Of a stretch of 37,883 nt of DNA, positions 19,473-36,308 are shown piece by piece. Numbering within the stretch: position 1 is the first letter of the stretch; each line of letters begins with the position of its first letter. Source of the stretch: a virus (taxonomy: Duplodnaviria; Caudoviricetes); the IMG/VR virus record IMGVR_UViG_3300017909_002923, positions 1 to 37,883 of that record; one strand, 5' to 3'. A program made the position numbers and the translations under genes. The notes beneath the pieces were generated by a model. The model did not search any database. It saw only the letters and a list, made by a program, of their open reading frames with translations, and was not told where the DNA came from.

Positions 19473-19498
19473 TATAATATGTTTAAATGGAGTACATT

Positions 19499-20176
19499 AT
19501 GGAATTAAGTGATAAAACTTTAACAGTTCTAAGAAATTATTCTGGTATAAATCAGAATATATTAGTTCATTCAGGTAACACGATTAAAACCATGTCTGAG
19601 GCTAGAACTGTTTTGTCTACTGCAGTGGTAGATGAAACATTTCCTCAAGACTTTGGTGTGTATGATCTGAATGAATTTATCGGTGTGTTAGGATTGGTTG
19701 ACTCACCTCGACTTAAATTCGAGGATGAGTATGTAACAATCGGCGACTCAACCGGTAGATCAAAAGTTAAATATTTCTTCTCATCAGAAGAAACTTTAAC
19801 TACTCCTCAGAAAGACGTAACTATGCCGGAAGCTGACGTTAAGTTTACTTTAACTAATGACACTTTAAATAAACTTAAAAAGGCAGCTTCTACTCTTGGA
19901 CACAGCGAAGTGTCAATTAGTGGAAAAGATGGTGTGTTAAGTCTTTCTGTAGTGGAGTCACAAAACTCAACGTCAAACATATTTTCGATCGATGTTGACG
20001 GTGAGTTTAAACCAGATGCAGTATTCAATTTTATAATCAATATAAGTAACTTAAAAATGTTACCAGGTGATTATGATGTTGAAATATCATCTAAATTAAT
20101 AACGCAATTCAAAAACAAAGAAGTGAACGTGACTTATTGGATTGCACTTGAAAAATCCTCAACCTTCGGAGTATAG
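19499..20176 (+). CDS. gp45: Sliding clamp
   Basis: LS..TL.VL.NYSGINQ, FGVYDLNEFI and YWIALE motifs; ATG 19499 follows GGAG. Confidence 0.95.
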   Translation: MELSDKTLTVLRNYSGINQNILVHSGNTIKTMSEARTVLSTAVVDETFPQDFGVYDLNEFIGVLGLVDSPRLKFEDEYVTIGDSTGRSKVKYFFSSEETLTTPQKDVTMPEADVKFTLTNDTLNKLKKAASTLGHSEVSISGKDGVLSLSVVESQNSTSNIFSIDVDGEFKPDAVFNFIINISNLKMLPGDYDVEISSKLITQFKNKEVNVTYWIALEKSSTFGV

Positions 20177-22301: not shown

Positions 22302-22868
22302 ATGGCAAACGAATTATCTGTCTATAAGTATTCAAGTTATAAAGAATATGTTGAAGAACAAACTAAAGCAAATAAACAAAAAATTGATTGGCAGTTTAGT
22401 GGTCATAAACAAATAAAATGGATAAAAAAACAAATTAATTCCGCTTCTAATATTATATGTCATGGTACAAGAAGTGGGGGAGAACAAAAAGTATTTCAAA
22501 AATTATATCCAAATGCTTATATAATTGGTACAGAAATAAGTGATACAGCTACTCAGTTTGAAATGACAGTGTGTCATGATTTCTCACTACAAAGAGATGA
22601 TTGGATTGAGCGTTTTGATATATTATATAGTAATGCTTTTGATCATAGTTATGATCCGAATAGAACAATTGTTACTTGGAAAAATCAATTGACAGAAGAA
22701 GGACGTATGTTTATCCATTGGGGAAAATACCACCAACATGCATCACACGGACCTCGAGATCCAGTGAGCGGTAGCATAGATAATTTTAAAAAGTTTTTAA
22801 ATAGGCATGGCTTAGAAGTTTTAAGCATCAATAACGATGTACTTATGTGCAAAAATATTTCTTCATAG
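22302..22868 (+). CDS. Putative class I SAM-dependent methyltransferase-like protein
   Basis: ICHGTRSG (motif I-like), IGTEIS (acidic end of beta2), FDILYSNAFDHSYDP and L..EG.MFI. Confidence 0.5.
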   Translation: MANELSVYKYSSYKEYVEEQTKANKQKIDWQFSGHKQIKWIKKQINSASNIICHGTRSGGEQKVFQKLYPNAYIIGTEISDTATQFEMTVCHDFSLQRDDWIERFDILYSNAFDHSYDPNRTIVTWKNQLTEEGRMFIHWGKYHQHASHGPRDPVSGSIDNFKKFLNRHGLEVLSINNDVLMCKNISS

Positions 22869-24306: not shown

Positions 24307-26868
24307 ATGTCATTTTATACATCTGTCGTACGTTACGGCAACTCAATGCTTTATCGTGGTTATGACTCTGCTGGTAAAAGAGTATCACGAAAAGATTTTT
24401 TTAAACCTACGTTTTTTACTCAGAGTCGTAAAGATTCTGAGTGGCGTGGTTTGGATGGAACGCCTGTTAGTCCTATACAATTTGAAAACATGCGTGAATC
24501 TAGAAACTGGCTCGAGCAAAACAAAGACGTAGCCGGCCGTCACATCTTCGGAAATCCTAATTATCTTCACCAATATATTACGAGTAAGTTTCCTAATGAA
24601 ATCAAATTTCGTCGTGAACTTATTAACGTAAGTACTATTGATATTGAAACTGATTATGATAATGGATTTCCACATCCGTCCGAAGCTTCACAAAAAATTC
24701 TTGCTATCACAATTAAAAATAGCACCAGTCCTGTATATTGGGTCTGGGGCTATGGTGATTATGACGTAGAAAAAGCTCTTATCAAACCTGTACGATATGT
24801 CAAGTGCGAAGATGAACACCAACTTCTCACAAGATTTCTCGATTTTATTAATGATCCTAATCGAGCTCCGGACGTTATAACTGGCTGGAACACTCGATTT
24901 TTTGATATTCCATATCTCGTTAATCGTACTGCCAAGGTATTAGGTCTTGCCGAAGTCAAAAGATTCTCGCCTTGGGGTATGGTTGACTATCGTAAAGTAA
25001 GACGTCGTATGAAAGAAGAAGATACATACGATATTAAAGGTATACAAACTCTTGATTATCTCGAGCTGTTTCAAAAATTTGGCTATTCTTATGGTGCTCA
25101 AGAATCTTACAAACTCAATCATATTGCTAATGTGGTTCTTGGCGAAAAGAAATTATCTTACGAAGAATCCGGTTCTCTTAAAAATTTATATAAAGACGAC
25201 TTTCAAAAATACATTGACTATAATATGAAAGATGTTGAGCTTGTTGATCGTCTCGAAGAAAAGATGGGATTGATTACTCTTGCTATGACAATAGCTTACA
25301 AAGGTGGTGTTAACTATCAAGACACTTTCGGTGTCACAGCAATATGGGAATCAATTATCTATCGCTACCTTAATAAACAAAAGCGTGTTCCATCTGTTAA
25401 TCAATTAGATAGTAGTCAATATCAAATTATCGGTGCGACCGAAACTTCAAAGAAAAATCCATCACCTGCTTTTAGAGAAGAAGGTAAGTCTCATCAAATT
25501 GCAGGTGGTTACGTAAAAGATCCAAAGCCTGGTGCTTATGACTGGGTTGTATCATTTGATTTAAATTCTCTATATCCAAATATCATTGTTCAAGCAAACA
25601 TATCACCAGAAACTTTAATGCCGAGTACGCAATGGTTAATGCCTGGTGTTAAACATTATCTTAATACAGTTGCGCCAGAAAGCAATCATTCAATCGCTGC
25701 TAATGGAACTACGTATAGCAAAAAAGTTGAAGGTGTCATACCTTCTATTATTACTGAATATTATGATGAACGTGTTTCAGTAAAAAATATGATGCTTGCT
25801 GCTATGAAAGATTATCAAGTTAATAAAACAGTAGAACTTGAAAGAGAAATCAATACACTCGAAAATAGACAAATGGCTATTAAAATTCTACTTAACTCTT
25901 TATATGGCGCATTAGCTAATAAGTATTTTAAATATTTTCATCCAGGTATGGCCGAAGGTGTTACTCTCACTGGTCAAACCACGATTAAGTGGGCAGAGCG
26001 TGCCATGAATGGTGCTATGAATAGTCTTCTTAAAACAGAAAAAGATTATGTTATAGCAATCGATACGGATTCAATTTACGTAAACTTCAATGCTCTCGTC
26101 AAAGAATTAAAACCAAAAGATCCAGTTAAATTCTTAGATAAAATTTGTAAGGAACATTTTGAACCTATGATTGCAAAATCGTATGATGCTTTTTTTACAC
26201 GTATGAATCATCATACTAAACGCATGGAAATGGCAAGAGAAGTTATTGCTGACCGTGGCGTATGGACAGCAAAGAAACGTTATATACTGAATGTTCATAA
26301 CTCTGAAGGCGTACAGTATGCAGAACCAAAACTTAAAATCATGGGTATTGAAGCAATTAAGTCTTCGACACCGGAAGTAGTACGTGATAAATTTAAAGAA
26401 GTATTTAAAATCATTATGGCTGGTGATGAGAAAGAAACACAAGATTTTATATCTCGATTTAAAACAGAATTCAAGCAACTTCCACCAGAACAAGTAGCTT
26501 TTCCACGTGGTACTAATAATATATCTGAGTGGTCTGATCGTAAAATCACATACAAAAAAGGCACACCAATTCATGTGCGTGGCGCTTTACTTTACAATAA
26601 ATATATTAAAGCAATGAAGCTCACAAACAAATACGAAATTATAAACAACGGTGATCGCGTAAAGTTCACCTATTTACGAGTACCAAACAGCATACGTGAA
26701 AATGTAGTATCTTTTCCAGACGTTTTGCCAGAAGAATTCAAACTACATAATTATGTGGATTACGATTTACAATTCGAAAAAACTTTTATTGAACCGCTTA
26801 ATTTTATTTTACATGCTGTTGGCTGGTCTGCAGAAGAACAAGCGAGCCTCGATGCTTTTTTTAATTAA
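24307..26868 (+). CDS. gp43: Family B DNA polymerase
   Basis: Exonuclease DIET, GWN..FFDIPY and YN..DV; polymerase SFDLNSLYP, KILLNSLYG, DTDS and KKRY; C-terminal SLDAFF clamp peptide. Confidence 0.98.
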   Translation: MSFYTSVVRYGNSMLYRGYDSAGKRVSRKDFFKPTFFTQSRKDSEWRGLDGTPVSPIQFENMRESRNWLEQNKDVAGRHIFGNPNYLHQYITSKFPNEIKFRRELINVSTIDIETDYDNGFPHPSEASQKILAITIKNSTSPVYWVWGYGDYDVEKALIKPVRYVKCEDEHQLLTRFLDFINDPNRAPDVITGWNTRFFDIPYLVNRTAKVLGLAEVKRFSPWGMVDYRKVRRRMKEEDTYDIKGIQTLDYLELFQKFGYSYGAQESYKLNHIANVVLGEKKLSYEESGSLKNLYKDDFQKYIDYNMKDVELVDRLEEKMGLITLAMTIAYKGGVNYQDTFGVTAIWESIIYRYLNKQKRVPSVNQLDSSQYQIIGATETSKKNPSPAFREEGKSHQIAGGYVKDPKPGAYDWVVSFDLNSLYPNIIVQANISPETLMPSTQWLMPGVKHYLNTVAPESNHSIAANGTTYSKKVEGVIPSIITEYYDERVSVKNMMLAAMKDYQVNKTVELEREINTLENRQMAIKILLNSLYGALANKYFKYFHPGMAEGVTLTGQTTIKWAERAMNGAMNSLLKTEKDYVIAIDTDSIYVNFNALVKELKPKDPVKFLDKICKEHFEPMIAKSYDAFFTRMNHHTKRMEMAREVIADRGVWTAKKRYILNVHNSEGVQYAEPKLKIMGIEAIKSSTPEVVRDKFKEVFKIIMAGDEKETQDFISRFKTEFKQLPPEQVAFPRGTNNISEWSDRKITYKKGTPIHVRGALLYNKYIKAMKLTNKYEIINNGDRVKFTYLRVPNSIRENVVSFPDVLPEEFKLHNYVDYDLQFEKTFIEPLNFILHAVGWSAEEQASLDAFFN

Positions 26869-26905: not shown

Positions 26906-27328
26906 ATGAGTAAAGATTGGGTAAATGATATAAATGAAATGCATTCTAAGTTCGGTGTCCACGAATGGGTTGATCACGAACTTATGAATAGAACTGACTG
27001 GCAAAAGCTTAATAAATTTTTACAATTTAGATTGAATTTTTTAAAAGAAGAATTAAATGAAACATGTAATGCTTTTGATAATAAAGATAGTGAGGAGATT
27101 GTAGATGGTCTTATTGACTTATGCGTTGTTGCTATTGGTACTCTTGATGCCTTCGGAGTGGATGCTTATAAAGCATGGGACGAAGTTCACAGCGCCAATA
27201 TGGCAAAAGAACGAGGAATAAAAGAATCACGACCTAATCCGCTTGGATTACCTGACTTAATTAAACCTGAAGGATGGACAGGGCCAAACCACAATGATAA
27301 CACCGGAAATATCCCTAACGCTCTTTAA
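26906..27328 (+). CDS. MazG-like / all-alpha NTP pyrophosphohydrolase (candidate dCTPase/dUTPase)
   Basis: FLKEELNE..EEIVDGLIDL acidic helices, EVHSANMAK and DLIKPEGW..P. Confidence 0.8.
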   Translation: MSKDWVNDINEMHSKFGVHEWVDHELMNRTDWQKLNKFLQFRLNFLKEELNETCNAFDNKDSEEIVDGLIDLCVVAIGTLDAFGVDAYKAWDEVHSANMAKERGIKESRPNPLGLPDLIKPEGWTGPNHNDNTGNIPNAL

Positions 27329-28232
27329 GGGAATATATGATAACAAAACGAGTATGCGCGTTGATCTTCATGATTTCAACGCGTTTGAACGCGTTCTATA
27401 TCAATTGGCCGAAAAACCAAGAGCGAGCAAAAAAGATGCTGAGCTTATGTCACCAGCAATATACGAACCAGATACTTTACGTAGAAACGATAACGTAATT
27501 GAATGGGCTTGTTGGTGCGCAGTTGATGTTGATGATTATAAGTTTAATGGAGAGTTAGAACATGATCTGGTTAATAGGTTTAATGATTATCGTTTTATTT
27601 GTTATAGTACTGCAAGTAGCACGATTGATCTACCGAAGTTTCGCCTTGTCTTCCCTCTTACGAACTCAGTACGGAATGGAGAAATTAAAGCTTTCTGGTA
27701 TGCGTTACAAACTGAACTCGGCGACCTCGGAGACAAACAAACTAAGGATTTGTCACGAATGTATTACATCCCTGGAAAATACGCTGGTGCTTACAACTTT
27801 ATATTCAGTCATCATGACGGTAACGCTATTGATCCTTATCAACTAATTAATAAACATCCAATGGCAGAAAAAACTGCTACGTCTTTTATTGATCGACTAC
27901 CAGAAGCTATGCAAAAAGAAATTATTGAGTATCGTAAATCTAAACTTGAAAACACAGATATAAACTGGACGTCATATCGAGATTGTCCGTTCTTTCCAAG
28001 ACAACTTGAAAACGAGTATAGAGCTATCAGTAATACAGGCTGGTATCATAAGATGTATCAAATCATGGTCGCTCTTGCCGGCAACGCAATTAAAAAAGAA
28101 TATCCAATTAGTGCTCAAGAAATATCTAAAATGTGCAGAGAGCTTGATATGGAAACTGGTAATTGGTATGCTAATCGACCAATGGATAAAGAAGCAGATC
28201 GGGCGTTAGAATATGTCTACAAAAACGTATAA
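27294..28232 (+). CDS. Archaeo-eukaryotic primase (PrimPol/VirE-N-like) superfamily protein
   Basis: AVDVDD (DxD), YSTAS..PKFRLVFPL and DKQTKDLSRMYYIP, plus a helical C-terminal domain. Confidence 0.7.
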   Translation: MITPEISLTLFKGIYDNKTSMRVDLHDFNAFERVLYQLAEKPRASKKDAELMSPAIYEPDTLRRNDNVIEWACWCAVDVDDYKFNGELEHDLVNRFNDYRFICYSTASSTIDLPKFRLVFPLTNSVRNGEIKAFWYALQTELGDLGDKQTKDLSRMYYIPGKYAGAYNFIFSHHDGNAIDPYQLINKHPMAEKTATSFIDRLPEAMQKEIIEYRKSKLENTDINWTSYRDCPFFPRQLENEYRAISNTGWYHKMYQIMVALAGNAIKKEYPISAQEISKMCRELDMETGNWYANRPMDKEADRALEYVYKNV

Positions 28233-29025: not shown

Positions 29026-29502
29026 ATGTATAACTTTAGCGAAACAGTTTTAGAATCTTATTGGATTGAAAAATATGGTAGTGTGGTAAAAGCCGTTTTA
29101 AAAAAACAAAATAAGCTTATTTCAGACACAATCGAAGAATTATATGCTATTTATACAAATGGTATCGTTAAAAATGCTGTTGGTTTTGATATTCAAAGAC
29201 CTAATAATATATTAGATGAGTTAAAATACACTGGCTCTATTCAAGGAAAATCCGTTTTACGTGTTGGTGGTCTAACTAACAAAGAAGGTAAATCGGATTA
29301 CATTGTTATTATTGATGGTGTTAATAACAGAACTTTTAGAATTCCTACTCATATCTTTTTTGCATTCGCAGATTTAAAAACTTCGAAAACCAGCACTTCG
29401 ACAACTACAGAATTTCACTGGTCTGTTTCATATAACAAAAATGATAATGTGAAGCGAGAAAATACTAAATTACTTTTACAATATGAGGTAACGAATGAGT
29501 AA
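29026..29502 (+). CDS. Hypothetical protein, possible PD-(D/E)xK nuclease
   Basis: Strong GAGGAG SD; E..E helix followed by GFD....DELK, compatible with a restriction-endonuclease-like active site. Confidence 0.4.
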   Translation: MYNFSETVLESYWIEKYGSVVKAVLKKQNKLISDTIEELYAIYTNGIVKNAVGFDIQRPNNILDELKYTGSIQGKSVLRVGGLTNKEGKSDYIVIIDGVNNRTFRIPTHIFFAFADLKTSKTSTSTTTEFHWSVSYNKNDNVKRENTKLLLQYEVTNE

Positions 29503-29851
29503 AGAATCACTTAAAATATTGCAGCGCGCAGCTGAAATACAAAACAAAAAAGGCAATGACTATCAGAATCCTAATTCTCGTGTACGTCAAGCCGATTATT
29601 ATCCACGTGGCTGTGCCACTCTTCTCGATACTATGGCTGCTAAAGTTTTGCGTATGCAGTCTGTACTTGAAGCTATGGAACTTGATCCTGACTATAATCC
29701 AAACTTCGAATCACTCGAAGATTCATGTATTGATATTATTAATTACGCTTCATTCTTTGCTGCGTATATGAATCATGGCATTGACGGTCAAGATCCTAAT
29801 CGTGATTTTCTTAATCGACCAAAAAAGGTGGTAACAGATGAAAGTTGCTGA
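29495..29851 (+). CDS. Nucleotide-modification-associated helical protein (Nmad1/DUF1599-like)
   Basis: KKGNDY..KVLR..FESLEDSCIDIINYASF pattern; overlaps the start of the hydroxymethylase gene. Confidence 0.65.
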   Translation: MSKESLKILQRAAEIQNKKGNDYQNPNSRVRQADYYPRGCATLLDTMAAKVLRMQSVLEAMELDPDYNPNFESLEDSCIDIINYASFFAAYMNHGIDGQDPNRDFLNRPKKVVTDESC

Positions 29852-30533
29852 TATTCGTAATTATTTTATTGAGGAGTTAAAAAATGAAAACTTTACAGTG
29901 GACAGAACTGGACAAAAAACTATTGAGCTTATCGGCGCTAGTTTTAATGCCGACGAGAAAGCGATCTTTGGTGAACCGAATGAAGAGTATATTGATGCTG
30001 AATTAACTTGGTATCTTAGTGGATCTTCAAACGTTAACGATATATATCCAGATAAAGATGCTCCGGTTGCCTGGCAGTATTCTGCAAATAAGCATGGCGA
30101 AATCAATTCAAACTATGGCCGGCTTATTTTTGATGACATGTTTTATCGCCAGTATGACAATGCTGTTGCTGAACTTGTAACAAATATGGATTCTCGCCGT
30201 GCAACTATGATATATACTAGACCAAGTATATGGATGGAATATAACGATAATGGTAAAAACGATTTTATTTGCACTAATGCTGTTACTTATTATCTTCGCG
30301 GTGGCGCCATACACGCAGTGGTACAAATGCGCTCAAACGATGTCGTGTACGGATACAAAAATGACTATGCTTGGCAGCTTTATGTTTTAGAACAATTTGT
30401 AAAAGATTATAATGATGCATACTTATCAAGCACTGCAGATGCTGACTATCGTGCAGAAATGAAAGTTGGTACTATCACATGGCAGGTACAAAATCTCCAC
30501 GTATATGAAAGGCACTTTCACCTTGTCAAATAA
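29838..30533 (+). CDS. gp42: dCMP hydroxymethylase (thymidylate synthase fold)
   Basis: GEINSNYG, catalytic DFICTN, MRSNDVVYGYKNDYAWQ (Asp at the pyrimidine-specificity position, as in T4 gp42, rather than the Asn of ThyA) and LHVYERHF. Confidence 0.9.
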   Translation: MKVADIRNYFIEELKNENFTVDRTGQKTIELIGASFNADEKAIFGEPNEEYIDAELTWYLSGSSNVNDIYPDKDAPVAWQYSANKHGEINSNYGRLIFDDMFYRQYDNAVAELVTNMDSRRATMIYTRPSIWMEYNDNGKNDFICTNAVTYYLRGGAIHAVVQMRSNDVVYGYKNDYAWQLYVLEQFVKDYNDAYLSSTADADYRAEMKVGTITWQVQNLHVYERHFHLVK

Positions 30534-30969
30534 ATGGGATTTAAGATTTATTGATTTAGCTAGACACGTTTCTTCTTGGTCTAAAGATCCATCTACTCAA
30601 ATAGGTGCGGTTGCCATTGATGACAATAGACAAATATTGTCTGTAGGTTATAATGGTTTTCCACGTGGAATCGAAGATAGTCCGGATAAATATTTAAATA
30701 GGCCGATTAAATATAAACATGTAGTTCATGCAGAAATGAACGTAATATACAATGCCACATATAATGGCGTATCTTTAAAAGGTAGTACTCTATATGTTTA
30801 TGGTTTACCTATTTGTTCAGAATGCGCAAAAGGTATTATACAAGTAGGAATAAAAAGAATAGTTATGCCTTCTCAAGAAATACCAGATCATTGGACCGAA
30901 TCTTGGGAGTTAACTCAAAATTTATTTAACGAAGCAAAATTAGTTTGGGAGTTTATAAATGTACAATAA
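30523..30969 (+). CDS. cd: dCMP deaminase
   Basis: SKDPSTQIGAV, GYNGFPRG, HAEMN and PICSECAK zinc motifs; probable TTG start at 30523. Confidence 0.92.
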   Translation: MSNKWDLRFIDLARHVSSWSKDPSTQIGAVAIDDNRQILSVGYNGFPRGIEDSPDKYLNRPIKYKHVVHAEMNVIYNATYNGVSLKGSTLYVYGLPICSECAKGIIQVGIKRIVMPSQEIPDHWTESWELTQNLFNEAKLVWEFINVQ

Positions 30970-31138: not shown

Positions 31139-31711
31139 ATGATTGAGTATTGGTGGCCAACCGAAATCGGTTTTTATGATAATCCAGAACACGACAAATT
31201 AAATTTAGTCGATTATTGTTATGAAATACAAAGTAAAACTGAAAGCGGTGGAAAAGATTGGATATCTTCTGACACCTATAATACCAGCAATAGAAAATTT
31301 CAACCTCATAAAGATGAAAAATTTAAAAAACTTGATGGCTGGATAAAAGAACAAATAAAAAATTATATAACAGAAACAAATTTAGCATACGAAATAACTG
31401 AAGAACAAACAGATTCTTGGTTTAACATATATAAGAAAGGTGATTTTCAAGAAATACATGATCATCTTTCTTATGTGTTATCTGCTGTATATTTTTTAAA
31501 GTCTAATCCGGAGTTCAGTCCTTTAACATTCAGGCCAAATTTTTTAGATCATTTAGCGATTGGTAAAACACAAGGATTATGTACTAATTGTAATGTAAAC
31601 TATTCTGCAACACCAGGTAGATTAGTTGTTTTTCGAAGTTATCTACCACATTGCGTAGAAAAACATAAAGATAATGAAGATAGAATTTCAATAGCATATA
31701 ATATGAGATAA
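31139..31711 (+). CDS. Putative 2OG-Fe(II) oxygenase
   Basis: SWFNIYKKGDFQEIHDH, LSAVYFL, G.LVVF.SYLPHCV and RISIAYN double-stranded beta-helix motifs. Confidence 0.85.
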   Translation: MIEYWWPTEIGFYDNPEHDKLNLVDYCYEIQSKTESGGKDWISSDTYNTSNRKFQPHKDEKFKKLDGWIKEQIKNYITETNLAYEITEEQTDSWFNIYKKGDFQEIHDHLSYVLSAVYFLKSNPEFSPLTFRPNFLDHLAIGKTQGLCTNCNVNYSATPGRLVVFRSYLPHCVEKHKDNEDRISIAYNMR

Positions 31712-32097
31712 TGAATAAAGTTTTAGTTATAGGACATAGTCCATCATCAAAAGAATATTGTCCAAAGAAAGGCAATCCATCGATTAATCGTTTAAATCGT
31801 TGGCTCGATGATTGTGGTATAAGAATATACAGCTATAGCAATGCGTGTGCACACCACGCCACTTCTCTTAAAAAAGCTAATATTGATGAAACATATATAC
31901 ATAATATTACTCAACAGTATAATAAAATATTAACATTAGGTAAAGAAGTAGAACAATTATTCAATAAGATGGGTATCGAGCATTACGCACTCCCGCACCC
32001 ATCTCCACTCAATAGAAAGTTAAACGATAAAGCGTACGAATTAAAAATCATAAATAACATCAAAACGTATTTACAAGTAGACTCATCTGTGGTATAA
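31711..32097 (+). CDS. Minimal uracil-DNA glycosylase superfamily protein
   Basis: VLVIGHSPS (motif A), ILTLG..V and LPHPSPLNR (motif B). Confidence 0.7.
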   Translation: MNKVLVIGHSPSSKEYCPKKGNPSINRLNRWLDDCGIRIYSYSNACAHHATSLKKANIDETYIHNITQQYNKILTLGKEVEQLFNKMGIEHYALPHPSPLNRKLNDKAYELKIINNIKTYLQVDSSVV

Positions 32098-32098
32098 T
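32070..32098 (+). promoter_or_regulatory. Early/middle promoter of the glycosyltransferase operon
   Basis: TTTACA-N17 (ending TGTGG)-TATAAT, then an AAGGAG SD. Confidence 0.8.
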
Positions 32099-32118: not shown

Positions 32119-33360
32119 ATGAAAACCATTATATTGCTCGGTCGTGGCACCGAGGGCTGTGGCGTTACTCAATGTTCTATACAAATGCAAAAAGTAACTG
32201 GAGCCACAATACTTTCAGCAAACGATAAAAAATGGGGTAGAGCCAAAGGACTTGACATTAACCAAACAGAAATGTCTGTAGGTAAGCAATGGCAAGAAAT
32301 GGCAAACATAGTTAATGAGCACGATCTTTGTATTGTGTATTCTATTCCATCGAAATCTCATCCACAAGATTGTCAAGATAATTTTGTTTCTCTTCTTGAC
32401 GCAATCAATATTCGCAAAGCATTTATCAATGTCGATCATAAATCGGCATCAATTGCTCGTAATGCAAACCTCGTAGAGGTGTGTAAAAAAATGGATGTGA
32501 TTATGACTCATAGTCTTGAAAATGATTTTTCTAAATTTATGAAGAAAAATAAAATAACCGTACCTTTAAAAAAGATGGGACTTGGTTTTGATTATGATGG
32601 ACATAGAGCAAAGTATTGGTTGCCTATTGAAGAAACACAAGAGCAATATGTTCGTTGGATTGGCCGCACAGCTATGTGGAAAGGCCCATCTCTTATGATT
32701 GATTTTCATGAAGAATCGCTCATGGACAATGGATTTATTACAGTGCTTGAAGGTTTAGAAGCAAGCATTCAATATCCTCTTGTATTATATCGTGATAATA
32801 AGAATGAAAATCCTACAGATCGTCGTAAGGTTGTAAATTACTTTCGGCCAGAAAAACAACACGGCGAGACAGAAAAGTTTAAAGAAGATATGTACGGTAC
32901 AGAAAAAACTGAACAAGGCGCGTATCTTTATCCACAATATACAAATCATGATTGCATGCAAAGACTTGCTGAATCTGCGTTTGGCTCAGATTTGTATCAC
33001 TTGAAAGCAGAAACTTATGGTAACAATATAGAAAATTGTCATGCTGAAATCATAGCATCTGGCGCTATTCCTATCTTCCATAAACACTTTTGTGATCATG
33101 TAATACATAAAGAACAGGGCAAACCAGTATCCCTTTGTCAAAATACTGGTACAATTGGTCTTGATTATTCTAATTTTAAAGAATGTCAAGAAGTCATGAT
33201 CAAATTAAAAAATGATCCTGCTATGAGAGATGATTGGCGTGAAATGGCTTTTGAATTTTGGAAACAACACTCAGACGGTGAGATGGTTGTAAATGAAATT
33301 ATGGAATTAGCCACAAGCGACGAACACCAACCACAAGGACTAGAGGAATTTTTCGGATGA
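32119..33360 (+). CDS. a-gt: DNA alpha-glycosyltransferase, homologue of T4 alpha-glucosyltransferase (GT-B fold)
   Basis: RGTEGCGVT, DH..S..RN, DVI..HS, RWIGRTAMWKG..M.DFHE, EGLE, E..H.E..A.G.IP.F.K and RE.A.EF...H.D are collinear with T4 AGT motifs as recalled from memory. Confidence 0.88.
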   Translation: MKTIILLGRGTEGCGVTQCSIQMQKVTGATILSANDKKWGRAKGLDINQTEMSVGKQWQEMANIVNEHDLCIVYSIPSKSHPQDCQDNFVSLLDAINIRKAFINVDHKSASIARNANLVEVCKKMDVIMTHSLENDFSKFMKKNKITVPLKKMGLGFDYDGHRAKYWLPIEETQEQYVRWIGRTAMWKGPSLMIDFHEESLMDNGFITVLEGLEASIQYPLVLYRDNKNENPTDRRKVVNYFRPEKQHGETEKFKEDMYGTEKTEQGAYLYPQYTNHDCMQRLAESAFGSDLYHLKAETYGNNIENCHAEIIASGAIPIFHKHFCDHVIHKEQGKPVSLCQNTGTIGLDYSNFKECQEVMIKLKNDPAMRDDWREMAFEFWKQHSDGEMVVNEIMELATSDEHQPQGLEEFFG

Positions 33361-34304
33361 CACATGTTTTTATTACCGGCATAGCCGGAATGATAGGGTA
33401 CCATACTGCTATCAAATTAAAAGAACAAGGATACTCGGTTGAGGGTATCGATAATTTTAACGACTACTATGACGTAGAATTAAAAAATGCTCGTAGTAAA
33501 TTACTTTCTGATAAACAAATAGCTGTACGAAATATTGATATTTGCTCACCTGGCGAATACTATGAACATATACAAGCTGCTGATGTGGTACTACACTTAG
33601 CTGCATATGCAAATCCAAGACATGCTATGGATGAACCACAACTTTACATTGATACAAATATTACTGGTACACAAAAACTAGTTGATATATGTGAAGGTTT
33701 AAATACGCCTGTTGTATATGCTTCAAGCTCATGTGTTATGCATGGCCAAACTTTGCCTTGGACAGAACACGATAACCCAGGCCACCAAAACAATCCTTAT
33801 GGCTGGTCTAAAAGAGTAAATGAATCTCAATTTATATATTCTAAAATAGCTCGCACTATCGGTCTTCGTTTCTTTACAGTGTATGGTCCTTATGGCCGGC
33901 CAGACATGGCTTTGTTTAAATTTACAGACGCTATTGTAAATGGCACGCCACTTACACTTTATAATTACGGTGATATGAAACGTGATTTTACTTATGTTGA
34001 TGATATCGTTCAAGGCATTGAACTTGTGATTAAACAAATACTTGAAAGCAATGAACCACTTGACGAGATCTACAATATTGGTTATGGTGAGCAAGTTCAA
34101 CTGATGGACTTTGTAGAAGAAATAGAAAAGAACTTAGGACGTAAAGGTACATATGATAAAGTGCCACCGCATCCTGCTGATATGCCAGCCACGTGGTCAG
34201 ATACATCTAAACTACAAAAGCTTGGATATAAACCAACTACTCCTATTTCTGAAGGTGTAGAAAAATTTGTTACTTGGTATAAGGAGTACTATAATGTCAA
34301 TTAA
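33357..34304 (+). CDS. NAD-dependent epimerase, UDP-glucuronate 4-epimerase-like
   Basis: GIAGMIG, GIDNFNDYYDVELK.AR, YASSS, YGWSK and GLRFFTVYGPYGRPDMALFKFT..RDFTYVDDIV, the signature of the UDP-GlcA epimerase subfamily. Confidence 0.85.
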   Translation: MTHVFITGIAGMIGYHTAIKLKEQGYSVEGIDNFNDYYDVELKNARSKLLSDKQIAVRNIDICSPGEYYEHIQAADVVLHLAAYANPRHAMDEPQLYIDTNITGTQKLVDICEGLNTPVVYASSSCVMHGQTLPWTEHDNPGHQNNPYGWSKRVNESQFIYSKIARTIGLRFFTVYGPYGRPDMALFKFTDAIVNGTPLTLYNYGDMKRDFTYVDDIVQGIELVIKQILESNEPLDEIYNIGYGEQVQLMDFVEEIEKNLGRKGTYDKVPPHPADMPATWSDTSKLQKLGYKPTTPISEGVEKFVTWYKEYYNVN

Positions 34305-35115
34305 TATTTTAATTGTTGGACACGGATATGTAGGAAAAGCGGTAGATCATGGCTTCTCTACTTCTCAAGTTACAAAGTATGTTGTTGATCCTCATTATGG
34401 AAATGACATCGATGATTTTAAAGGAGTAAGGATGCATGCAGCATTTGTCTGTGTGCCTACTCCGTTTGGTGAAATGGGCGTAATTGATTCCTCGATTGTA
34501 GAAGATGTAGTTAATCGACTAGAAACTTTTGCTTGTCCTATCATAATCAAGTCGACTGTAACTCCAAATATAGTAGAAGACTTATCAAAGAAAAATTCTG
34601 ACGTTGTATATAATCCAGAATTTTTAACAGAGAAAAATCATCTTGACGATTTTATTAATCCACCTATGCATATATTCGGTGGTAACCCAATGATTACACG
34701 TCAAGTACAAGATCTTTATGAAAAATATAGTCAGTGTAAACCATGTCCAGTTATGCATATGACAGCAATGGAAGCTTCATTTGTAAAATACGGAATTAAT
34801 TGTTTTCTTGCTACTAAAGTTTTATGGTTTAATCAATTTAAAGATTTAATTGATATAACAGATTCAAAATATAATGTGATTGTAAATGCTATTGGTTCTG
34901 ATCCGCGTATTGGTCATTCACATACACAAGTTCCTGGACCTGATGGACGTAAAGGTTATGGTGGAGCATGTTTTCCAAAAGATACAAATGCTTTTAACAC
35001 ATATGCTCATGGCAAATTTTCTGTTCTTGGAGATGTTATTAAAGCCAATAATACATATAGAAGTCAATATGAATTAGATGAACGTGAAAAAGAACAGAAA
35101 GTAAGTTATGCCTAA
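34294..35115 (+). CDS. ugd: UDP-glucose 6-dehydrogenase (short form)
   Basis: GHGYVG, FVCVPTP, IKSTV.P, YNPEFL, K...N.FLA.K, DPRIG and catalytic GYGGACFPKD; ATG 34294 follows AAGGAG. Confidence 0.88.
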   Translation: MSINILIVGHGYVGKAVDHGFSTSQVTKYVVDPHYGNDIDDFKGVRMHAAFVCVPTPFGEMGVIDSSIVEDVVNRLETFACPIIIKSTVTPNIVEDLSKKNSDVVYNPEFLTEKNHLDDFINPPMHIFGGNPMITRQVQDLYEKYSQCKPCPVMHMTAMEASFVKYGINCFLATKVLWFNQFKDLIDITDSKYNVIVNAIGSDPRIGHSHTQVPGPDGRKGYGGACFPKDTNAFNTYAHGKFSVLGDVIKANNTYRSQYELDEREKEQKVSYA

Positions 35116-36307
35116 TTATGCGAGTATAGTACCACTCATTGGTGGTGAAACAATCGCCATGCAAAATGTGTTTGGTAAAAGACCGGAGTATATTTTAAGT
35201 TATGAACCGTTTCAAACAAATGATAATCACCTTAATGAATATTATAAAAACGAAGTACCCTATCATCTTATCGGAGACGGTGGGGTACCTGATGTACCTC
35301 ATGTCGATGTTATTAATACCGTATGCCCTTGTGCTGGGCTTAGCAGTCTTAGTACTACAAGCAGTTCTGATGCTGCTATTAACGATTGGATGCGTACCAC
35401 TGCGAATCATGTTTTGGGTACACTCTCTCCTCAAGTATTCTGGGGCGAAAACGCACCAAGACTCGCTTCAGCAATGGGACGACCGATTGTCGAAGACCTT
35501 AGGAGAATCGGGGAAACGTTTGGATATACTTTTTCTATATATAAGACGAAATCTATTCTTCATGGATTAGGACAAGTTAGAGATCGAGCATTTTATTTTT
35601 TCTGGAAAGGTGAAAAAACTCCAAAATTCGAATATATAAAACGTGAACATGAAAAGATTGAGGATACGATTCGTTCCGTGAAACGCGATCCAAGTGATCC
35701 AATGTCAATCCTTACAAACTCAAGTGTTCCATCAGAAAATCCATATTATCGTTTTGTGCTCAAAGAGCTCGAAAATGGCATAACTCATTCGCAGTTTCAA
35801 GATAAGATCAGTAAGAGTTATGACATATTACATTACATTGAAGATCAAGGCATAAGTTATAAAGAAGTTTCAAAATGGATGACTCAACATGGGTTTGACA
35901 AGCAAGCGACTCGTTCAATGACTATGTATGAGAAACTAAAATCTGGTGGAAACGTAATGAGACGCGGTGTTAATATACCGAAGAATTATATTGGTGCTTT
36001 TGTTGGAGCGTATCCTACTAGCCTTACACATCCAGACGAGGACCGTTACTTGACAATTCGTGAATGTTTATCAATCATGAAATTACCAGAAGATTTTAAT
36101 CTTCAAGGCGGACTTAAAAATATAAATCACATATGTCAGAATGTTCCAGTGACAACTGCTCAGGATATGGCAGATCATGTTCTTAAATTTGTAGATGGTA
36201 GATTAGATAATCAACTTATTGAAACAAAATATCTCGTACAAGACAATAAATCAAAAACACTTGACTATGAAAAAGAGAGTGTACAACTTGACGCATTTAT
36301 GGTATAA
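35108..36307 (+). CDS. Atypical C5-cytosine DNA methyltransferase-like protein
   Basis: Motif IV CPCAGLS, motif VI GENAP, motif VIII GQVRDRAF, motif IX RYLTIREC..LPEDF, motif X CQNVP; motif I is degenerate (IVPLIGG). Confidence 0.75.
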   Translation: MPNYASIVPLIGGETIAMQNVFGKRPEYILSYEPFQTNDNHLNEYYKNEVPYHLIGDGGVPDVPHVDVINTVCPCAGLSSLSTTSSSDAAINDWMRTTANHVLGTLSPQVFWGENAPRLASAMGRPIVEDLRRIGETFGYTFSIYKTKSILHGLGQVRDRAFYFFWKGEKTPKFEYIKREHEKIEDTIRSVKRDPSDPMSILTNSSVPSENPYYRFVLKELENGITHSQFQDKISKSYDILHYIEDQGISYKEVSKWMTQHGFDKQATRSMTMYEKLKSGGNVMRRGVNIPKNYIGAFVGAYPTSLTHPDEDRYLTIRECLSIMKLPEDFNLQGGLKNINHICQNVPVTTAQDMADHVLKFVDGRLDNQLIETKYLVQDNKSKTLDYEKESVQLDAFMV

Positions 36308-36308
36308 T
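36280..36308 (+). promoter_or_regulatory. Early/middle promoter for uvsX
   Basis: TGTACA-N17 (ending TATGG)-TATAAT. Confidence 0.65.

What the first reader, a model, noticed from the sequence alone, without database searches (positions are those of the whole stretch)
35108..36307. C5-methyltransferase paradox: a degenerate SAM motif in a genome whose C5 should already be occupied
Seen: catalytic PC, EN, QxRxR and motifs IX/X are intact, but the FxGxGG SAM-binding motif I reads IVPLIGG and motif X GN reads QN. The gene is the last of the GT operon and has a clamp-binding-like tail. Established: C5-MTases activate cytosine through a Cys-C6 adduct and, without SAM, can add or remove hydroxymethyl groups or couple thiols to hmC in vitro. 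Inference: it may use a non-SAM or modified-SAM donor (for example carboxy-SAM), process hmC, or cap residual unmodified cytosines, giving a second novel base.
Basis: partly seen in the sequence, partly recalled or inferred. Interest (0 to 1): 0.78.

Follow-up and report, generated by a model that had tools for sequence, protein, structure and literature searches.

The report
Candidate hydroxymethylcytosine eraser of marine phages
This phage gene encodes a DNA cytosine-methylase look-alike that keeps the cytosine-attacking residues but has its methyl-donor pocket rewritten, travels with predicted hydroxymethylcytosine-making enzymes in unrelated phages and also occurs in copepod transcripts, so it likely edits hydroxymethylcytosine without the usual methyl donor, most likely by stripping the hydroxymethyl group off, which is untested.

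Summary
ORF 35108-36307 (399 aa) has the C5-methyltransferase fold and keeps Cys75, Glu114 and Arg158/160. Its SAM site is rewritten: FxGxGG reads VPLIGG, the ribose-binding Glu is Ser, and motif X GN reads CQ, so an invariant Gln344 occupies the position that selects the donor in CmoX. The rewrite is family-wide, not decay (426 clusters at 50% identity). The family pairs with dCMP-type (Asp177) thymidylate-synthase homologues in T4-like marine phages, S-TIM5, XG4 and phage G, whatever sugar cassette follows. T4-like members end in the polymerase's clamp-binding tail. Carboxy-SAM is not supported (no Arg, no SPPC, no CmoA). A nested clade includes Neocalanus copepod transcripts with the whole pocket kept, so any co-substrate should be a common metabolite. 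Best reading (0.33): a SAM-free eraser that turns unglycosylated hmC back to C on new DNA. SAM-independent chemistry of some kind is about 0.65; ordinary 5mC about 0.2. Nothing is shown biochemically. This scan noted the family before in many other genomes, once with the same eraser idea.

The parts
35108..36307 (+). C5-methyltransferase-fold enzyme with rewritten cofactor pocket, 399 aa (the finding)
35126..35146 (+). Motif I IVPLIGG (residues 7-13); CmoX Phe25 = Val8, first Gly of FxGxGG = Leu10
35198..35224 (+). Motif II region: Ser31 at the ribose-binding Glu position (register inferred), aromatic Tyr32 kept, family-specific Phe35, Asn38, Asp39
35324..35344 (+). Motif IV CPCAGLS with catalytic Cys75
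35447..35458 (+). Motif VI ENAP (Glu114)
   Evidence: E in 155 of 155
35573..35587 (+). Motif VIII QVRDR (Gln156, Arg158, Arg160)
36134..36148 (+). Motif X CQNVP; Gln344 at the HhaI Asn304 / CmoX Arg350 donor-selecting position
36284..36304 (+). C-terminal QLDAFMV, likely sliding-clamp-binding tail
   Evidence: weak complex support
29838..30533 (+). gp42-like dCMP hydroxymethylase (Asp143, Asp169, Asp177), predicted source of hmC
29495..29851 (+). Nmad1/DUF1599-like protein, possible dNTP pyrophosphatase, usually next to the synthase
   Evidence: Pfam E=0.15 only
30466..30969 (+). dCMP deaminase
32119..33360 (+). T4-type DNA alpha-glucosyltransferase with clamp-type tail GLEEFFG, first gene of the operon
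   Evidence: 29% to T4 agt
33357..34304 (+). NDP-sugar epimerase
34294..35115 (+). UDP-glucose dehydrogenase (ATG 34294); its end overlaps the finding's start by 8 bases
32070..32098 (+). Extended -10 promoter-like site upstream of agt
   Evidence: consensus match only
36280..36308 (+). Extended -10 promoter-like site upstream of uvsX, marking the likely operon end
   Evidence: consensus match only
19487..20176 (+). gp45 sliding clamp, likely docking partner
24307..26868 (+). Family B DNA polymerase ending SLDAFFN, the internal reference for the clamp tail

Best explanation
The gene encodes a C5-methyltransferase-fold protein that keeps its cytosine-attacking residues and has a rewritten SAM pocket, and it likely acts as a SAM-free DNA dehydroxymethylase that rides the replication clamp and would turn hydroxymethylcytosines left unglycosylated back into plain cytosine. 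Proposed steps: (1) the gp42-like synthase makes hm-dCMP and the polymerase builds hmC DNA (inferred from sequence signatures). (2) The alpha-glucosyltransferase and this enzyme both dock on gp45 by their tails (inferred; weak model support). (3) The transferase caps most hmC with a sugar; sites it cannot reach stay bare and are targets of modification-dependent nucleases (established for T4). (4) This enzyme flips a bare hmC, Cys75 adds to C6 with Glu114 and Arg158/160 holding the ring, Gln344/Asn345 hold the 5-CH2OH, formaldehyde leaves by retro-aldol cleavage and Cys75 is released (chemistry known as a side reaction of SAM-free C5-MTases; its use here is inferred). Pro9, Leu10 and Phe35 would fill the SAM ribose site (inferred from alignment, not measured on the model).
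For: Shown: catalytic residues invariant and SAM-contact positions replaced family-wide. Shown: linkage to Asp177 synthases. Of 95 family loci, 55 gave a synthase hit and 54 of these have Asp169 and Asp177. Nine of 9 contigs of a second clade carry one tens of kb away. S-TIM5 has ThyX plus an unrelated ThyA-like gene with Asp177 close to the family gene; 16 of 16 relatives of that gene keep Asp177 and 13 of these 16 loci hold the family motif. Phage G has a normal ThyA plus an Asp177 synthase about 13 kb from gp301 and two alpha-glucosyltransferases beside it. The link is one-way: 963 phage records have a gp42-like gene, 7 match this protein. The sugar cassette varies while the enzyme stays. 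Copepod-type copies keep every pocket residue, one fused to a CXXC finger. No GC/AC depletion in family genomes, unlike S-B43 and Melnitz. Literature: M.MpeI work attributes methyl transfer to hmC to loss of formaldehyde and cites SAM-free dehydroxymethylation (PMC11347137 passages); T4 alpha-GT alone leaves about 20% of hmC bare, is restricted at consecutive hmC, binds gp45, and bare hmC is cut by McrBC/McrA (PMC13216743 abstract and passages). Recalled, not read: S-TIM5 DNA is modified only at C after purines, which a nucleotide-pool route cannot give without a DNA-level editor; this family gene is its only PF00145 match.
Against: No activity has been measured. The S-TIM5 synthase has Cys, not an acid, at position 143, which PMC13326640 correlates with a methyl product; a methyl group could not be erased this way, and the recalled report says 'methylated'. 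The adenine-side positions are partly kept (aromatic at 32; Asp at 56 in 107 of 155 rows) and new polar residues are nearly invariant (N38, D/E39, N92, N380), which may mean a ligand still binds. Erasing re-exposes sites to ordinary restriction enzymes. CC and CCC are still depleted in the window (0.91 and 0.67), as if bare hmC runs remain costly. Five family contigs (G005, G006, G007, G008, G022; 9-30% complete) showed no Asp177 synthase. The same active site could run the reaction forwards. Loci are redundant, so counts overstate independence.
Confidence: 0.33

Rival explanations
1. It couples a small cellular nucleophile (thiol or amine) or a hydride to hmC through the exocyclic methylene intermediate, capping bare hmC as a second modified base or as 5mC; the rebuilt pocket binds that co-substrate.
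For: Explains the strict need for an hm-dCMP synthase, the clamp tail and the nearly invariant new polar residues. Thiol coupling to hmC by C5-MTases is known in vitro (recalled; listing only of PMC7176277). Capping protects without re-exposing C.
Against: No gene for a nucleophile or donor travels with the family. It does not explain unmodified YC sites in S-TIM5 (recalled). No such adduct is known to me from copepod DNA.
Confidence: 0.2
2. It is a SAM-dependent 5mC methyltransferase with an unusual but working pocket, capping cytosines that escaped substitution, and in S-TIM5 writing the reported RC methylation.
For: Whole fold and motifs IV-X retained. Aromatic 32 and Asp 56 could still hold adenine. 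It is the sole PF00145 gene of S-TIM5, whose RC cytosines were called methylated (recalled). CXXC fusion in a eukaryote-type copy resembles DNMT1. C5-MTases taken up by eukaryotes are usually methyl writers (recalled).
Against: Leu at the glycine under the ribose, Ser for the ribose Glu, and changes at HhaI Gly78, Gly303, Asn304 and Ser305 together. An ordinary methylase needs no dCMP-modifying partner, yet the link is near-strict. No GC or AC depletion in S-TIM5 (1.04, 0.98) whereas S-B43 and Melnitz show GC at 0.88 and 0.91. 5mC after purines would be a McrBC target (established knowledge).
Confidence: 0.2
3. It is a SAM-free writer that adds a formaldehyde unit (free or folate-bound) to residual C in new DNA, making hmC for the glycosyltransferase.
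For: Same active site as the eraser, run forwards; formaldehyde addition by C5-MTases is known in vitro (recalled). Fits the clamp tail and operon position. No T4 gp56 homologue was found in the T4-like loci or window, so dCTP might leak in.
Against: A stand-alone writer should sometimes occur with a GT and no synthase; no near-complete genome examined shows that. XG4 has both a gp56 homologue (40%) and the family. Low cellular formaldehyde favours removal (inference).
Confidence: 0.15
4. It is a CmoX-like carboxymethyltransferase using carboxy-SAM.
For: 8YF3 is the best single-sequence PDB hit (E=6e-4) and second by VIA Z.
Against: Gln344 instead of Arg350; no SPPC in 404 proteins; CmoX itself keeps canonical FAGGGG and Glu47; no match to the genes beside CmoX in 116 loci, 1.72 Mb, including all of S-TIM5.
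Confidence: 0.03
5. It is a non-catalytic or suicide base-flipping factor that presents or shields hmC for the glycosyltransferase.
For: Co-transcribed with the GT and shares its clamp tail.
Against: Cys75, Glu114 and Arg158/160 are invariant; partners include unrelated GT folds; copepod copies have no phage GT.
Confidence: 0.05

Closest known systems
Bacterial and phage DNA (cytosine-5)-methyltransferases (M.HhaI, M.HaeIII, 3G7U; Pfam PF00145, TIGR00675)
   Same: Fold, motif order, catalytic Cys, ENV Glu, QxRxR, motif IX.
   Different: Motif I, ribose Glu, pre-PC Gly and motif X GNS all rewritten and conserved; C-terminal beta extension and clamp tail; 12-19% identity; near-strict link to dCMP C5 synthases.
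CmoX, DNA cytosine C5-carboxymethyltransferase of Synechococcus phage S-B43 (PDB 8YF3, PMC12783734)
   Same: Phage C5-MTase fold with a changed residue at the Asn304 position; precedent that this fold can change donor in nature.
   Different: CmoX has Arg there, SPPC, canonical FAGGGG/Glu47 and CmoA/CmoY neighbours, and its genome is GC-depleted; none holds here.
Phage C5-MT / TET / GT hypermodification clusters (PMC8256090; bioRxiv 2023.12.21.572611)
   Same: A C5-MTase homologue beside glycosyltransferases and sugar enzymes.
   Different: There the MTase writes 5mC for TET. Here hmC is predicted to come from the nucleotide pool, and no Tet_JBP match was seen in 5 records (inconclusive control). 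I did not see those papers' sequences.
T-even hmC system (gp42, gp56, alpha- and beta-glucosyltransferase)
   Same: gp42 (52.6%) and alpha-GT (29%) homologues; clamp-linked GT.
   Different: T-even phages are not among the family's hits; T4 covers the sites alpha-GT misses with beta-GT.
SAM-free side reactions of C5-MTases (dehydroxymethylation, aldehyde addition, thiol coupling; DNMT3A/B in vitro)
   Same: The chemistry proposed here.
   Different: Known as in vitro side activities of SAM-binding enzymes (PMC11347137 passages; the rest recalled), not as the job of a dedicated natural enzyme.
Uncharacterised cultured members: S-TIM5 gp080, Pseudoalteromonas phage XG4 ORF, Bacillus phage G gp301 (distant)
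   Same: Same rebuilt motifs (IIPLVGG/CQNVP; LIPLIGG/AQNVP; FIFGG/CPCSGLS/AQGVP) and an Asp177 synthase plus GTs.
   Different: About 30% identity or less; no L[DE]xF tail; phage G keeps the motif II Glu.

Membership tests
DNA (cytosine-5)-methyltransferase (PF00145) | C5-MTase fold and motif order | tested here: met
DNA (cytosine-5)-methyltransferase (PF00145) | Catalytic PC, ENV Glu, QxRxR | tested here: met
   C75 149 of 150, E114/R158/R160 155 of 155
DNA (cytosine-5)-methyltransferase (PF00145) | Motif I FxGxGG | tested here: not met
   VPLIGG; 0 of 404 proteins with F[ASC]GxGG
DNA (cytosine-5)-methyltransferase (PF00145) | Acidic residue binding the SAM ribose (motif II) | tested here: not met
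   Ser 133, Thr 10 of 150 at position 31; register from alignment
DNA (cytosine-5)-methyltransferase (PF00145) | Motif X GN(S/A)V | tested here: not met
   CQNV
DNA (cytosine-5)-methyltransferase (PF00145) | Adenine-side aromatic and motif III Asp | tested here: inconclusive
   aromatic kept at 32; Asp in 107 of 155 at 56, Gly56-Asp57 in the window protein
DNA (cytosine-5)-methyltransferase (PF00145) | SAM-dependent methyl transfer to DNA | not testable with these tools
   needs assay
CmoX carboxymethyltransferase | Arg at position 350 | tested here: not met
   Gln344 in 147 of 151, Lys in 3, Glu in 1
CmoX carboxymethyltransferase | SPPC motif | tested here: not met
   0 of 404
CmoX carboxymethyltransferase | CmoA / CmoY neighbours | tested here: not met
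   no tblastn hit, E<=1e-3, of the two S-B43 genes upstream of CmoX (taken as CmoA, possibly partial, and CmoY by position and motifs) in 116 loci
C5-MT/TET post-replicative pathway | Linked TET/JBP dioxygenase | tested here: inconclusive
   0 of 5 records, but the control also rang nowhere; the window's 2OG oxygenase is PF13759 type
T4-type hm-dCMP pathway (context gene 29838-30533) | Asp177, acidic 143, Asp169 kept (not the D169N 5-hydroxy type) | tested here: met
T4-type hm-dCMP pathway (context gene 29838-30533) | gp56-type dCTPase and full C replacement | tested here: inconclusive
   no T4 gp56 blast hit in the window; MazG-like 26906-27328 and Nmad1-like 29495-29851 are candidates; only 37.9 kb of the genome is held
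gp45 clamp-binding proteins | C-terminal L[DE]xF[FLM] peptide | tested here: met
   55 of 63 vs 57 of 745
gp45 clamp-binding proteins | Binding to gp45 | tested here: inconclusive
   weak pass, 0.46 vs best control 0.02
Dedicated DNA hmC dehydroxymethylase (proposed) | hmC to C conversion with formaldehyde release, Cys-dependent, SAM-independent | not testable with these tools
   needs assay

The most novel reading that the evidence does not exclude
This family is the first dedicated natural DNA 5-hydroxymethylcytosine eraser. Phages use it to sculpt a fully hmC-substituted genome into a patterned one (sugar-capped sites kept, bare sites reset to C), and copepods captured it from a phage, duplicated it and fused it to CXXC and zinc fingers as a direct, excision-free route of active DNA demethylation after TET.
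Probability: 0.25. Interest if true: 0.95.

Novelty: new variant of a known kind. Interest (0 to 1): 0.75.

Why it matters
Direct enzymatic removal of the hydroxymethyl group from hmC has been sought as a demethylation route for over a decade and is known only as an in vitro side reaction. A large natural family built for SAM-free chemistry at C5 would make the question directly testable, with cultured phages (S-TIM5, XG4, G) and a copepod as sources. Any of the non-methyl outcomes adds a new step to phage DNA modification in an abundant marine virus group and could give an hmC-specific sequencing or editing tool. Even if it proves to methylate, it would be a new SAM-binding design and a phage-to-animal transfer of a DNA-modifying enzyme. 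It also means thousands of genes labelled 'DNA cytosine methylase' may be mislabelled.

Tried and rejected
Decayed pseudo-enzyme: rejected. Carboxy-SAM: rejected. Sugar-specific partner of the uronic-acid cassette: rejected, since cassettes vary. My early idea that S-TIM5 lacks a dCMP modifier (no gp42-like match) was wrong: its 'ThyA' has Asp177. Melnitz MTase, a weak hit, is canonical FAGGGG and not a member. Search for a shared depleted motif in 7 family genome samples against T4, Melnitz and S-B43 found none common to all; TCG/CGA is low in five but high in the window and low in controls too (6 shuffles, 31-148 kb coding each). The dinucleotide test used 12 shuffles, counted both strands, and has only two positive controls. 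Tet_JBP search was inconclusive. Sequencing-run search listed no RNA holder and no library type useful for base modification; nothing was laid. P0174 found no viral loci. In the tree P0356 fell outside the eukaryote-type clade because I cut it to 440 residues and its domain starts later; it was dropped from the clade count. The AF2 coordinates could not be inspected, so pocket filling was not measured. Ten literature searches found no description of this family; the S-TIM5 paper (Sabehi 2012), Iyer 2013 and Marx and Alian 2015 are not held, and supplements of the C5-MT/TET and GT papers were not read, so a member may have been tested there. No paper on phage G base chemistry was found.
Full report
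Setting. The window is a 37.9 kb fragment of a T4-like phage and is all that is held of the genome. It runs from head and tail genes through the replication block to uvsX.

1. Observation. The ORF, its motifs, its place at the end of an overlapping agt - epimerase - UDP-glucose dehydrogenase operon and its tail are as described. The model is confident (pLDDT 89.9) and matches C5-MTases well above anything else (VIA Z 24.7, rmsd 3.0, 282 aligned; first non-C5 row Z 9.5). One correction matters. Canonical IGNAVP aligns to ICQNVP, so GN reads CQ. PMC12783734 (results and discussion read) shows that HhaI Asn304 is Arg350 in CmoX and touches the transferred group. Here that position is Gln344. Mapping the other CmoX contacts: Phe25 to Val8, the first motif I Gly to Leu10, Glu47 to Ser31 (register inferred from strand end and from phage G gp301), Phe48 to Tyr32, Asp69 to Gly56/Asp57, Cys98 to Cys75.

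2. A large, conserved family. The search gave 1890 clusters at 90% identity among 4203 candidates and 426 representatives at 50% identity with E<=1e-30. In 155 diverse rows the new residues are nearly as fixed as the catalytic ones: P9 145 of 146, L10 144 of 146, F35 138 of 148, N38 143 of 150, Q344 147 of 151, N345 144 of 151, against C75 149 of 150 and E114 155 of 155. Among 185,579 prokaryote genomes a three-pattern scan found 15 loci, all in metagenome bins; I read these as mis-binned phage contigs (inference). The ESM Atlas neighbours are viral clusters auto-named as methylases.

3. What it travels with. In 64 IMG/VR loci the gene is constant while the cassette before it changes: alpha-GT with epimerase and UDP-glucose dehydrogenase; a GT with UDP-galactopyranose mutase; inositol-phosphate synthase with an HMUDK-helical protein and an unassigned protein; a TAGT; or a nucleotidyltransferase-kinase with a HAD protein and GT. 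The constant partner is a thymidylate-synthase homologue. PMC13326640 (introduction and passages) gives the rules: Asp177 selects dCMP, acidic 143 goes with hydroxymethyl, D169N marks 5-hydroxy-dCMP. The window enzyme is 52.6% identical to T4 gp42 with the hydroxymethylase signature. Of 95 loci, 55 gave a synthase hit, 54 with Asp169 and Asp177 and one unclear; of 47 loci with at least 7 kb upstream, 42 gave a hit (one of them the unclear one). Of the five without, L113's contig has an Asp177 synthase elsewhere, L110 and L114 (26-30% complete) show only a normal ThyA, and L105 (9%) shows none. In a second clade only 5 of 60 loci have the synthase within 10 kb, but 9 of 9 of its contigs searched whole carry an Asp177 synthase further away, beside a separate normal ThyA in the 4 checked; a more distant contig, 11% complete, had none, and two were not held. 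Many loci are near-duplicates, so the independent evidence is the spread of lineages.

4. Cultured members. XG4 (32%) has the synthase, GT-like genes and a gp56 homologue. Phage G gp301 is a distant member (hhalign 99.8%, E=2.9e-29), the only PF00145 gene in 497 kb, next to two alpha-GTs, with an Asp177 synthase about 13 kb away besides a normal ThyA. S-TIM5 gp080 (30.5%) is that genome's only PF00145 match. S-TIM5 makes dTMP by ThyX, has an alpha-GT, and its 'ThyA' gp076 has Asp177 and Cys143. All 16 relatives fetched keep Asp177 and 13 of the 16 loci hold the family motif. gp076 belongs to a different subfamily from gp42 (one search found no match), so the pairing is functional, not inherited synteny (inference). 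I recall from the abstract of Sabehi et al. 2012 that all cytosines after purines are methylated in S-TIM5; the paper is not held, and I do not know whether the method could tell 5mC from glycosyl-hmC. The link is one-way: 963 phage records carry a gp42-like gene and 7 match the window protein.

5. Clamp. An L[DE]xF tail ends 55 of 63 T4-like members against 57 of 745 other ORFs, which are mainly GTs, the HMUDK-like protein and the polymerase. T4 alpha-GT binds gp45 (PMC13216743 passages). The predicted complex of gp45 with residues 365-399 passed weakly: 0.46 against a best control of 0.02, run agreement at least 76%, partner pLDDT at least 44. The mark was reached by 51 of 78 solved and 2 of 108 mismatched pairs, but at 0.60 or under by only 5 of 78 solved and all 4 passing mismatches; clamp-peptide complexes are solved, so the pass may reflect likeness.

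6. Footprint test. Against synonymous-codon shuffles, S-B43 (known GC modifier) has GC at 0.88 and Melnitz (canonical MTase) 0.91. Nine family samples have GC at 1.01-1.09 and AC at 0.98-1.03, like T4 (1.07, 0.97). No 3- or 4-mer is low in all family samples. This argues against complete 5mC at a short GC or AC motif, S-TIM5 included, but would not detect rare capping.

7. Animals. Long homologues with zinc-finger-like tails appeared in the deep search; one carries a CXXC domain (E=6.6e-07). A follow-up listed dozens. Two clusters are EukProt Neocalanus flemingeri proteins (TSA prefix confirmed in a passage of PMC6105596). Thirty-one of 32 such sequences form one clade (FastTree support 0.99) nested among phage sequences; the 32nd was misplaced by my truncation. 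They keep PLIGG, S31, F35, N38, CPCAGLS and QNVP in essentially every row. Only two clusters are named to species, the rest are copepod-like by kinship, and genomic integration was not checked. Earlier notes calling the family virus-only are thus too narrow. The point for mechanism: a nucleus has no hm-dCTP, carboxy-SAM or phage sugar pathway, so the reaction needs a common metabolite or none (inference), while hmC is available there from TET (established for animals, not checked in copepods).

8. Mechanism. The constraints are: Cys-C6 activation kept, SAM contacts replaced, dependence on pre-modified C5, indifference to the sugar, work at the fork, no methylation footprint, and usefulness in an animal nucleus. 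A cofactor-free dehydroxymethylase meets all of them. SAM-free C5-MTases can release formaldehyde from hmC (PMC11347137 passages). T4 alpha-GT alone leaves about 20% of hmC bare, is restricted at consecutive hmC, and bare hmC is attacked by McrBC and McrA, which gives a phage with a single GT a reason to reset bare sites. It would also turn a pool-level substitution into the patterned S-TIM5 genome. Against it stand Cys143 in gp076, the word 'methylated' in the recalled report, the partly kept adenine site, the persisting CC depletion and the cost of re-exposing C. I put it at 0.33, nucleophile or hydride capping at 0.2, SAM methylation at 0.2, hydroxymethyl writing at 0.15, non-catalytic at 0.05 and carboxy-SAM at 0.03.

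9. Known kinds and novelty. It works like a C5-MTase up to the covalent adduct but fails three SAM-site membership features and all three CmoX features. Ten searches found no description. Papers seen: PMC12783734 (parts 1-3 of 8), PMC13326640 (part 1 and passages), PMC8256090, bioRxiv 2023.12.21.572611, PMC11347137, PMC7824862, PMC8670742, PMC10087341, PMC10452541, PMC12801897, PMC11292947, bioRxiv 2024.12.05.627091, PMC6105596 (passages only), PMC13216743 (abstract and passages). No supplements were read; those of the C5-MT/TET papers could hold tested members. This scan's own notes list the family in many other genomes, one with the eraser reading; these are not independent support. Verdict: real, a new variant of a known enzyme kind with probably different chemistry, untested; interest 0.75.

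Noticed in passing
L001:4769-5605 (-) (S-TIM5 gp076): Annotated ThyA, but has Asp at the dUMP/dCMP position 177 and Cys at 143 while ThyX supplies dTMP: a likely dCMP methylase or hydroxymethylase of a ThyA-like subfamily.
   Followed up: partly
P0304, P0336 and 30 related proteins: Copepod (Neocalanus flemingeri) and copepod-like transcripts encode several paralogues of this phage family with zinc-finger tails, one with CXXC; likely a single phage-to-animal transfer.
   Followed up: partly
L093:390-11227 and L097 (Bacillus phage G): Cluster of two alpha-glucosyltransferases, sugar-nucleotide genes, gp301 and a second Asp177 thymidylate-synthase homologue predicts glycosylated hmC in phage G.
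   Followed up: partly
window 32119-35115: alpha-GT, epimerase and UDP-glucose dehydrogenase overlap in one operon, suggesting a uronic-acid sugar on hmC; in relatives this slot holds galactofuranose, inositol-phosphate, TAGT or nucleotidyltransferase-kinase cassettes.
   Followed up: partly
L063:6843-9253; L100; L101: Two divergent family paralogues in tandem, which may have different sequence preferences or reactions.
   Followed up: no
window coding sequence; G002: CC and CCC are depleted against codon shuffles (window 0.91 and 0.67; G002 0.90 and 0.74), possibly from poor glycosylation of hmC runs or from UV damage.
   Followed up: partly
alignment, column 344: Three of 151 diverse members have Lys in place of Gln344, mirroring the engineered carboxy-SAM variant M.MpeI N374K.
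   Followed up: no
L134 / L094 (Methylophilales phage Melnitz): Canonical C5-MTase beside the polymerase; genome depleted in AGC/GCT (0.67) and almost free of GATC (0.03), hinting at its target and at host restriction.
   Followed up: no
window 22302-22868: 188-aa ORF with a faint class I methyltransferase match (PF13847 E=0.036); no match to the CmoA-like gene of S-B43.
   Followed up: partly
window 31711-32097 and 27294-28232: A short UDG-superfamily protein and a primase-like protein recur in the modification block of many relatives.
   Followed up: no
L119-L133: All 15 hits in prokaryote genome collections are metagenome bins, several with two or three different family loci in one bin, likely mis-binned phage contigs.
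   Followed up: partly
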